In this document: positions 41,025 to 41,264 of the stretch, piece after piece
How the letters are laid out: every line of letters begins with the position of its first letter
Position numbering within the stretch: position 1 is the first letter of the stretch
Source of the DNA: a virus
Taxonomy: Duplodnaviria; Heunggongvirae; Uroviricota; Caudoviricetes
Length of the DNA: 47,670 nucleotides
Virus record (IMG/VR): IMGVR_UViG_2627853701_000003
Direction: 5' to 3' (one strand)
Notes under the pieces: generated by a model
Told to the model about the DNA's origin: nothing
The model's input: only the letters and a program-made list of their open reading frames with translations
Database searches by the model: none
Program-made: the position numbers and the translations under genes

Positions 41025-41069
41025 AAATAAAAAAATCCCGCAGAGTTAGCGGAGCTGCGGGAGAGAACG

Positions 41070-41189
41070 ATGAAGATTAACGTTATGGAGTTATTTTTCA
41101 GGCATCAAAAAAGTAATGCAGCGTCATTATTGCGGCTACAGGCAATTGCCGGAAATGTGAAGAGTTTCAGAAATTTTATTCCGTCATGA
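41070..41189 (+). CDS. possible 39-codon small ORF in the I-J spacer
   Basis: ATG preceded by GGGAGAG; MKINVMELFFRHQKSNAASLLRLQAIAGNVKSFRNFIPS; followed by a terminator. Weak evidence. Confidence 0.15.
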   Translation: MKINVMELFFRHQKSNAASLLRLQAIAGNVKSFRNFIPS

Positions 41190-41191
41190 CA

Positions 41192-41221
41192 CAGGCACCC
41201 TCCGGGGTGCCTGTTGTTTTC
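41192..41221 (+). terminator. rho-independent-terminator-like hairpin upstream of J
   Basis: 9-bp stem CAGGCACCC-tccg-GGGTGCCTG followed by TTGTTTTCT. Confidence 0.5.
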
Positions 41222-41264
41222 TGGCATAAACAGATTCAGACATCAGACAGGAGAGGGGGACAGA

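What the first reader, a model, noticed from the sequence alone, without database searches (positions are those of the whole stretch)
41025..41264. 240-bp insert between tail genes I and J with two hairpins and a possible 39-codon ORF
In lambda, I and J abut. Here a spacer carries a minus-strand terminator-like hairpin (CCCGCAG...CTGCGGG beside an A/T-run, 41037-41061), a short ORF with a Shine-Dalgarno (41070-41189), and a strong plus-strand terminator-like hairpin (41192-41221) just before the J GTG start. A terminator before the largest tail gene is unexpected and suggests a small independently regulated element (small RNA, micro-ORF or attenuator) inserted in the tail operon.
Basis: seen in the sequence. 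Interest (0 to 1): 0.45.

Follow-up and report, generated by a model that had tools for sequence, protein, structure and literature searches.

The report
Known prophage small RNA gene (EcOnc22/PasB)
The extra DNA between tail genes I and J is a small regulatory RNA gene, already described as EcOnc22 in EHEC and PasB in EPEC, that is read backwards relative to the tail genes; the 39-codon reading frame is not a gene, and the hairpin just before J is also present in phage lambda.

Summary
A 240-bp spacer (41025-41264) holds a minus-strand terminator hairpin, a 39-codon ORF and a strong plus-strand terminator-like hairpin.

The spacer is 100% identical to the I-J spacers of E. coli O157:H7 Sakai prophages Sp15, Sp14 and Sp11. 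The first 23 nt of the published EcOnc22/23/24 Northern probe (Tree et al. 2014) match window 41059-41081 exactly, in plus-strand sense. That probe therefore detects a minus-strand RNA. It was reported as about 85 nt, Hfq-bound and destabilised without Hfq.

The same slot in EPEC E2348/69 encodes PasB (83 nt, Hfq-dependent, Northern-validated). The left hairpin plus U7 is this sRNA's terminator.

The 39-aa ORF is not conserved: 22 of 92 alleles lack the start codon, and lengths range from 10 to 54 aa.

The right hairpin is conserved with a compensatory change. Lambda's own 60-nt I-J gap carries an equivalent hairpin, and a third allele group carries an unrelated one. It is therefore a feature of the junction, not of the insert.

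Added here, as far as the papers I read go: EcOnc22 and PasB are alleles of one family; a conserved promoter block; tandem arrays of two or three cassettes in some prophages.

The parts
40347..41024 (+). Tail assembly gene I (context). Its stop codon TGA is at 41022-41024.
   Evidence: ORF list; VT1-Sakai annotation.
41029..41119 (-). sRNA gene of the EcOnc22/23/24 = PasB family. The 3' end is the U7 run at 41029-41035. The 5' end is uncertain: 41104 is the position equivalent to PasB's annotated start, about 41113 follows from the ~85-nt Northern size, and 41119 is predicted from the -10.
   Evidence: The first 23 nt of the EcOnc22/23/24 Northern probe match 41059-41081 in plus-strand sense. 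The spacer is identical to Sakai Sp15/14/11. PasB maps to 41029-41104.
41029..41062 (-). Intrinsic terminator of the sRNA and likely Hfq-binding 3' module. Stem 41036-41043 / 41055-41062, 11-nt loop, tail AUUUUUUU.
   Evidence: The stem is invariant and the loop variable across 53 alleles; it is the only structure in the consensus fold.
41126..41131 (-). Predicted -10 hexamer of the sRNA promoter (AATAAT here, TATAAT in PasB).
   Evidence: A -10-like hexamer lies at a fixed 24-nt distance from the conserved block in 52 of 55 distinct modules; alignment. Inferred; no transcription start mapping.
41153..41179 (.). Most conserved block of the spacer, AAATGTGAAGAGTTTCAGAAATTTTAT. It lies at about -34 to -60 of the sRNA promoter and contains the CRP-like motif TGTGA-N6-TCAGA (41156-41171).
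   Evidence: Conserved in 53 of 55 distinct modules. Core match. The centre is about -44.5, 3 bp off the canonical class II position, so the regulator is unresolved; an UP element is an alternative.
41070..41189 (+). 39-codon ORF, judged non-coding. It is the antisense image of the sRNA body and promoter.
   Evidence: 22 of 92 unique alleles lack the ATG. Lengths range from 10 to 54 aa, with frameshifts among close alleles.
41191..41222 (+). Plus-strand intrinsic-terminator-like hairpin (stem 41191-41214) with a U-rich tail. It is the positional counterpart of lambda's own I-J hairpin.
   Evidence: C:G to U:A compensatory change with U.G intermediates. Lambda hairpin. An unrelated hairpin sits at the same place in other alleles.
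41265..44738 (+). Tail tip / host specificity gene J (context). GTG start, preceded by GGAGAGGGGGA.

Best explanation
The spacer holds a self-contained small-RNA gene, a 'moron' of about 165 bp, inserted between the stop codon of I and the hairpin that lambdoid phages carry in front of J.

The RNA is transcribed from the minus strand, antisense to the tail operon. Its promoter has a conserved -10 (41131->41126) and a conserved upstream block (41153-41179). It ends at the left hairpin plus U7 (41062->41029), giving an RNA of about 76-91 nt.

This RNA is EcOnc22/23/24 of EHEC and an allele of PasB of EPEC. Published work shows these to be Hfq-bound, Hfq-stabilised RNAs expressed in lysogens while the flanking tail genes are silent.

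The RNA most likely acts in trans as an Hfq-dependent base-pairing RNA on host and island mRNAs. Its body is mostly unstructured and carries conserved motifs, AACUCC (anti-Shine-Dalgarno-like) and GUUAAUCUUCAU.

The right hairpin is a plus-strand intrinsic terminator or 3'-end hairpin of the late mRNA. It is ignored by Q-modified polymerase during lytic growth and stops unmodified polymerase in the lysogen.

Shown: sequence identity, probe match, terminator, conservation pattern, loss of the ORF. From the literature: expression, size, Hfq dependence. Inferred: transcription start, promoter regulator, targets, and the role of the right hairpin.
For: Identity with the known RNAs:
- The spacer is 100% identical to the I-J spacers of Sakai Sp15, Sp14 and Sp11.
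- Tree et al. 2014 Table S2 lists the Hfq-CRAC peaks EcOnc22/23/24 in exactly these three prophages, on the strand opposite the tail genes, with a Northern size of ~85 nt and destabilisation in delta-hfq.
- The first 23 nt of their probe match window 41059-41081 in plus-strand sense, uniquely in the window.
- The old-to-new coordinate shift was calibrated on AgvB1. It places the CRAC peak at about 41035-41104.
- PasB (NC_011601 1466343->1466261, 83 nt, probe AATCCCGCAGTGATCGCGGAGCT) lies in the 240-bp I-J spacer of prophage PP6 and aligns to window 41029-41104 at 73% identity.

Expression (EPEC RNA-seq): pasB base mean is 482 and 1082, against 4.8 for I and 15 for J. log2 fold change in delta-hfq is -6.8 and -2.4.

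Conservation:
- 53 distinct sRNA alleles share the terminator stem, the U tail and two body motifs.
- The -10 sits at a fixed distance from a block conserved in 53 of 55 modules.
- The spacer occurs in 801 of 5426 complete E. coli genomes, median 3 places per genome.

Right hairpin: a compensatory change and positional analogues in lambda and in other alleles.
Against: - No transcription start site has been mapped for this allele.
- The window allele has a poor -35, and the promoter scan finds nothing.
- PasB's annotated 5' end lies about 13-15 nt downstream of the start predicted from the -10.
- Targets in EHEC are unknown (review PMC7873438). No common target motif was reported for PasB.
- The CRP-like site is centred 3 bp off the canonical class II position. 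A core match with one mismatch is not rare: 5 in the window against 1.75 expected.
- The function of the right hairpin is inferred only.
- The probe text in the stored PDF is garbled after nucleotide 23.
Confidence: 0.9

Rival explanations
1. The 39-codon plus-strand ORF (41070-41189) encodes a small protein, with GGAG as its Shine-Dalgarno and the right hairpin as its terminator.
For: The ORF, a GGAG 7 nt upstream of the ATG, and a downstream plus-strand terminator are all present.
Against: - 22 of 92 unique alleles lack the start codon. Only 20 keep a 39-aa frame.
- Lengths run from 10 to 54 aa, with frameshifts and premature stops even among near-identical alleles.
- The GGAG lies within the 3' flank of the hairpin stem.
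- The conserved positions follow the sRNA and promoter pattern, not codon periodicity.
- No plus-strand promoter is detected.
- In EPEC lysogens the plus-strand genes I and J are nearly silent.
Confidence: 0.03
2. The right hairpin is a regulated terminator (attenuator) that sets J expression. It may be modulated by pairing of the antisense sRNA with the late mRNA just upstream.
For: - The hairpin and U tract are conserved, with a compensatory change and U.G intermediates that only work on the plus-strand RNA.
- It is the strongest terminator-like site in the 20-kb late region.
- Three unrelated hairpins occupy the same position in different lineages.
- The sRNA is perfectly complementary to the late mRNA about 70 nt upstream.
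Against: - Late transcription in lambdoid phages is by Q-modified, terminator-resistant polymerase (established knowledge).
- No conserved alternative (anti-terminator) structure was found, and there is no Rfam cis-regulatory match.
- Lambda has the hairpin without any sRNA cassette, so the hairpin does not depend on the sRNA.
Confidence: 0.1
3. The sRNA acts mainly in cis as an antisense RNA. It pairs with the late polycistronic mRNA between I and J and triggers RNase III cleavage or decay, delaying or tuning tail-tip synthesis on induction.
For: - It is perfectly complementary to 41029-41119 of the late transcript.
- It is abundant in lysogens before induction.
- Its position at the I-J junction is conserved in 801 genomes.
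Against: - The complementary region overlaps neither the I coding sequence nor the J ribosome-binding site (41250-41265).
- PasB has 37 trans interactions in RIL-seq, and there are no entries for I or J in the interaction table.
- The sRNA body varies widely between alleles, as expected for trans-target diversification.
Confidence: 0.15

Closest known systems
EcOnc22 / EcOnc23 / EcOnc24 (E. coli O157:H7 Sakai prophages Sp15, Sp14, Sp11; Tree et al. 2014, PMC4104026)
   Same: The DNA is identical over the whole spacer. Strand and position are the same. The first 23 nt of the probe match exactly. The RNA is about 85 nt, Hfq-crosslinked, and destabilised in delta-hfq.
   Different: Nothing in the spacer itself. 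The window's prophage is not exactly Sp15: J is intact here but split in Sp15. No targets or function have been published.
PasB (EPEC E2348/69 prophage PP6; Pearl Mizrahi et al. 2021, PMC8550237; surveyed by Zhu, Shabalina and Storz 2026 preprint)
   Same: It occupies the same I-J slot of 240 bp, on the same strand. The terminator stem, U7 tail, promoter block and right hairpin are the same. It is 83 nt, Hfq-dependent, and validated by Northern and RIL-seq.
   Different: Identity is only 73% across the RNA, with a 6-nt indel in the body. PasB has a near-consensus promoter (TTCACA, 16-nt spacer, TATAAT), whereas the window allele has AATAAT and no -35.
Anti-sRNAs AgvB / AsxR at the pR' moron site (Rfam RF02702, RF02703)
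   Same: These are also short, Hfq-dependent, prophage-encoded RNAs at a conserved slot of lambdoid prophages, with a variable 5' region and a conserved 3' terminator. AgvB itself is present elsewhere in this window (21389-21450).
   Different: There is no sequence or covariance-model similarity. The slot differs (I-J rather than downstream of pR'). The RNA is longer, and anti-sRNA activity has not been shown.
Lambda I-J intergenic hairpin (NC_001416 15445-15504)
   Same: It is a plus-strand G+C-rich hairpin followed by a U-rich run, directly upstream of the J ribosome-binding site.
   Different: The stem sequence differs (ACCGCC/GGCGGU). Lambda has no sRNA cassette between I and the hairpin. 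I did not find or read any paper on this lambda hairpin, so I cite no known function for it.
Morons of lambdoid phages (Juhala et al. 2000, as cited in PMC4104026)
   Same: It is extra DNA between two late genes, absent from lambda at that junction. It has its own promoter and terminator and is expressed from the repressed prophage.
   Different: The cargo is a non-coding RNA on the opposite strand rather than a protein gene in the sense orientation.

Membership tests
EcOnc22/23/24 sRNA (EHEC) | Located in the I-J spacer of Sakai prophages Sp15/Sp14/Sp11, on the strand opposite the tail genes | tested here: met
   The window spacer is 100% identical to all three. The published peaks fall in these spacers once the coordinate shift is calibrated on AgvB1.
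EcOnc22/23/24 sRNA (EHEC) | Complementary to the published Northern probe | tested here: met
   The first 23 nt of the probe equal window 41059-41081 on the plus strand, a unique match. The remainder of the probe text is garbled in the stored PDF.
EcOnc22/23/24 sRNA (EHEC) | An RNA of about 85 nt, bound by Hfq and destabilised without it | not testable with these tools
   Taken from Tree et al. 2014 Table S2. The length predicted from the -10 to the U7 run is 91 nt, which is compatible.
PasB sRNA family (EPEC) | Homologous sequence at the same locus and on the same strand | tested here: met
   The alignment covers the whole spacer, with 73% identity over the 83-nt RNA. The terminator stem and promoter block are the same.
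Hfq-dependent trans-acting sRNA | Rho-independent terminator with a long 3' U tail, preceded by a single-stranded U/A-rich body | tested here: met
   8-bp stem plus U7. In the consensus fold only the terminator is structured.
Hfq-dependent trans-acting sRNA | Base-pairs with multiple mRNA targets | not testable with these tools
   PasB has 37 RIL-seq interactions. None are published for EcOnc22. My RNAduplex scan timed out.
Small protein gene | Start codon and reading frame conserved across alleles | tested here: not met
   22 of 92 alleles lack the ATG, and lengths range from 10 to 54 aa.
AgvB/AsxR anti-sRNA family (Rfam RF02702/RF02703) | Match to the covariance model | tested here: not met
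   No match in 40900-41400 even at E <= 10. AgvB is found elsewhere in the window.
Class II CRP-dependent promoter | CRP site TGTGA-N6-TCACA centred at -41.5 | tested here: inconclusive
   The core matches in 9 of 10 positions, with a perfect left half-site AAATGTGA, and is conserved in 53 of 55 modules. However, the centre is 32.5 bp from the upstream edge of the -10, which puts it at -44.5.
Moron | Autonomous promoter and terminator unit, absent from the same junction in related phages | tested here: met
   Lambda lacks the ~165-bp cassette. The terminator is shown. Expression in lysogens comes from the literature.

The most novel reading that the evidence does not exclude
The I-J junction of Escherichia lambdoid prophages is a dedicated slot for modular sRNA cassettes. 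Each cassette has one nearly invariant promoter-upstream block (AAATGTGAAGAnnTTCAGAAA, CRP-like), a -10 at fixed spacing, a freely diversifying RNA body, and a minus-strand terminator.

Cassettes can be stacked in tandem arrays of two or three, including a second RNA type with its own terminator and a CCUCCUUAAGG motif. All would answer to one host or phage regulator, possibly cAMP-CRP, which would tie a family of prophage sRNAs to carbon status.

The link between EcOnc22 and PasB, and these arrays, are not stated in the papers I read.
Probability: 0.3. Interest if true: 0.4.

Novelty: already known. Interest (0 to 1): 0.2.

Why it matters
For genome annotation, this 240-bp gap, present in about 15% of complete E. 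coli genomes and often in several copies, should be labelled as an sRNA gene. It is absent from Rfam and from RefSeq annotation.

The work also joins two names from separate literatures, EcOnc22/23/24 and PasB, into one family. It shows that the family's promoter is conserved while the RNA body diversifies. That gives a concrete handle, the conserved block, for asking what signal switches these prophage sRNAs on in EHEC and EPEC.

It does not reveal a new kind of element.

Tried and rejected
- Rfam, gathering threshold on the whole window and E <= 10 on 40900-41400: no family covers the spacer.
- Sigma-70 promoter scan: no hit. The window allele lacks a -35.
- Micro-ORF: rejected on conservation. 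The minus-strand 40-aa ORF 41105-41227 spans the promoter and the right hairpin, and it cannot be kept in alleles with a different right module.
- Canonical class II CRP promoter: the spacing is off by 3 bp, so this is left unresolved. By reading the sequence I also compared the promoter region with the sigma-54 consensus (GG and GC 10 nt apart) and found no match.
- RNAduplex target scan of the sRNA against the window: timed out, no result.
- Species-level scan of 185,579 genomes for the promoter block: only E. albertii is credible. Three hits are tiny or short contigs in unrelated genera, probably E. coli contamination, and one hit in a cyanobacterial MAG looks like chance.
- Using the published Sakai coordinates directly: these would have placed the CRAC peak on the right hairpin. 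The coordinates turned out to be from the older genome version, shifted by about +137 to +146. The probe sequence settled the position.

Full report
**What is there**

Gene I ends at 41024 (TGA 41022-41024). J starts at GTG 41265, as annotated in phage VT1-Sakai, whose I-J region is 100% identical to the window over the 501 bases searched, 40900-41400.
- **Left hairpin.** UCCCGCAG (41036-43) pairs with CUGCGGGA (41055-62). On the minus strand it is followed by seven U. Folding energy is -13.2 kcal/mol against -5.65 +/- 2.06 for shuffles.
- **A 39-codon ORF** at 41070-41189.
- **Right hairpin** at 41191-41214, with 10 pairs of which 7 are G-C, followed on the plus strand by UGUUUUCUGG. Folding energy is -23.1 kcal/mol, z = -5.8. 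It ranks first of the 36 terminator-like sites in the 20-kb late region.

**Identity of the element**

The spacer is widespread. It has 148 phage records, mostly Stx-converting phages, and occurs in 801 of 5426 complete E. coli genomes, with a median of 3 places per genome. Neither these annotations nor Rfam name anything in it.

The literature does.
- **EHEC.** Tree et al. 2014 (PMC4104026), Table S2, list three homologous Hfq-CRAC peaks: EcOnc22 (Sp15, the Stx1 phage), EcOnc23 (Sp14) and EcOnc24 (Sp11). The Northern size is ~85 nt and the RNA is destabilised in delta-hfq.
- **Location.** In the current Sakai record these coordinates fall in the I-J spacers of exactly those three prophages, on the strand opposite the tail genes. 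All three spacers are identical to the window.
- **Coordinate shift.** The published coordinates are from the older genome version. Calibrating on AgvB1 gives a shift of about +137 to +146, which puts the peak at about window 41035-41104.
- **Probe.** The Northern probe 'EcOnc22/23/24' (Table S3C) begins GGGAGAGAACGATGAAGATTAAC. This is window 41059-41081 in plus-strand sense and is unique in the window. The RNA detected is therefore the minus strand. The rest of the probe text is garbled in the stored PDF, as are other oligonucleotides in that table.
- **EPEC.** Pearl Mizrahi et al. 2021 (PMC8550237, Table S6) describe PasB: NC_011601 minus strand 1466343->1466261, 83 nt, prophage PP6, probe AATCCCGCAGTGATCGCGGAGCT, Hfq-dependent, validated by Northern and RIL-seq with 37 interactions.
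- **Same slot.** That position is the I-J spacer of PP6, also 240 bp. It aligns with the window across its whole length. PasB corresponds to window 41029-41104 at 73% identity.
- **Expression in EPEC lysogens.** pasB base mean is 482 and 1082, against 4.8 for I and 15 for J. log2 fold change in delta-hfq is -6.8 and -2.4.

The left hairpin is thus the intrinsic terminator and Hfq-binding 3' module of a known sRNA. A 2021 review lists EcOnc22-24 with unknown targets.

**Comparative anatomy**

Two pattern scans of IMG/VR returned 180 loci. These gave 91 unique spacers, plus the window itself as a 92nd sequence in the allele counts below.

Read on the sRNA strand, each module has the same layout:
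- A nearly invariant block ATAAAAnTTCTGAAnnTCTTCACATTT.
- About 20 variable bases.
- A -10 hexamer at a fixed 24-nt distance from the TCACA. Allowing for a one-base register error in my script, the hexamer reads TATAAT in 29 of the 55 distinct modules, AATAAT in 15, TATCAT in 6 and GATAAT in 2.
- GCG/UUA at the predicted start.
- A U run, then a variable A-rich body with the conserved motifs AACUCC and GUUAAUCUUCAU.
- The invariant 7-bp terminator stem with a variable loop, then U7.

The consensus fold contains only the terminator. For the window the predicted RNA is 41119->41029, 91 nt, which fits the ~85-nt band. PasB's coverage-based 5' end maps to 41104, so I give the 5' end as 41104-41119.

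The conserved block contains TGTGA-N6-TCAGA, with a perfect AAATGTGA half-site, and looks like a CRP site. It is not a clean case. Its centre lies 32.5 bp from the upstream edge of the -10 (about -44.5), 3 bp off the class II position. A core match with one mismatch is also not rare: 5 in the window against 1.75 expected. Its position, about -34 to -60, would equally suit an UP element. PasB being higher in LB than in DMEM is compatible with catabolite control if the DMEM used contained glucose, as that medium normally does; this does not prove it. I leave the regulator unresolved.

**The ORF**

Of 92 unique alleles, 22 lack the ATG. The others encode 10 to 54 aa, and only 20 keep 39 aa. Alleles nearly identical to the window carry frameshifts or early stops. 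The ORF is the antisense shadow of the sRNA and its promoter, not a gene.

**The right hairpin**

Its stem shows one compensatory change (C:G to U:A in 7 alleles). U.G intermediates occur in 8 alleles; they pair only in the plus-strand RNA. One allele has the opposite intermediate. The U-rich tail is kept throughout.

The hairpin is not specific to the insert.
- Lambda's own 60-nt I-J gap folds into ACCGCC-UGCG-GGCGGU followed by UUUUGUCAUUU.
- A further allele group replaces the hairpin with an unrelated one, AAACCCCGGTATC...GATACCGGGGTTTCTCTTT.

Three different hairpins at one position, just upstream of the J ribosome-binding site, argue for a function in the late transcript. Candidates are a terminator for polymerase not modified by Q, or a 3'-end or processing hairpin. 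Because late transcription is Q-antiterminated (established knowledge), a terminator here does not block J in lytic growth. Relative to lambda, the insert is the ~165-bp sRNA cassette placed between the I stop codon and this hairpin. The function of the hairpin remains an inference.

I found no sign of a plus-strand sRNA ending at the right hairpin. There is no plus-strand promoter, and I and J have no entries in the EPEC interaction table.

**Extra observations on the family**

Eight IMG/VR loci carry two or three modules in tandem in the I-J gap. In L054 the gap is 715 bp with no plus-strand ORF of at least 60 aa. These arrays include a second RNA type with a different terminator and a CCUCCUUAAGG motif. 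Rfam does not know these either.

In the species-level genome scan the block is credible only in Escherichia.

**Verdict**

The element is already known experimentally under two names. Interest is low. The modest additions are the EcOnc22-PasB link, the conserved promoter block, the cassette arrays, and the point that the pre-J hairpin is shared with lambda.

Noticed in passing
window 25481-27653 and 31644-33815: A direct repeat of about 2.17 kb, nearly 100% identical, at 6162-6163 bp spacing inside the head/late gene region. The ORF pattern there looks disrupted (264-, 483-, 500- and 723-aa ORFs). It could be a real duplication or rearrangement of head genes, or an assembly artefact.
   Followed up: partly
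window 20835-21450: Rfam finds three tRNA genes (20835-21083 +), STnc100 (21196-21388 +) and, convergent with it, a perfect-consensus AgvB anti-GcvB sRNA (21389-21450 -). In Sakai, AgvB is reported for Sp10 and Sp17, not Sp15, so the window is not simply the Stx1 prophage Sp15.
   Followed up: no
window 13057-13173 (-): ALIL pseudoknot, the frameshift signal of IS3-family insertion sequences (121.5 bits). This indicates that an IS element, probably IS629-like, sits in the early region.
   Followed up: no
window 41265-44738: J is an intact 1157-codon frame here, but it is split by a mutation into two CDS in VT1-Sakai / Sakai Sp15. Only 74% of window 15000-39000 is covered by VT1-Sakai. The window is therefore a related but different EHEC lambdoid prophage.
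   Followed up: partly
L054 8172-8883; L027; L043 7293-7712; L127: Tandem arrays of two or three sRNA cassettes in the I-J gap. Each has the conserved TGTGA-N6-TCAGA block and a -10. They include a second RNA type (terminator CTCCCGT...ACGGGAG, body with CCUCCUUAAGG). The junction between modules repeats the 3' end of gene I, which suggests unequal recombination between prophages.
   Followed up: partly
L191 (Asaia platycodi, 546-bp contig), L192 (Parendozoicomonas, 460-bp contig), L195 (Streptomyces flavalbus, 3.4-kb contig): Short contigs in unrelated genera carry E. coli prophage I-J spacer sequence. This is most likely E. coli contamination in those assemblies. In L191 the sRNA body is replaced by unrelated sequence upstream of the conserved block.
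   Followed up: partly
L003 1743-2660 (E. coli PS2Canimalfeces12): In this genome an IS66-family element (its TnpB accessory gene is annotated) is inserted just after the spacer, splitting the start of J.
   Followed up: no
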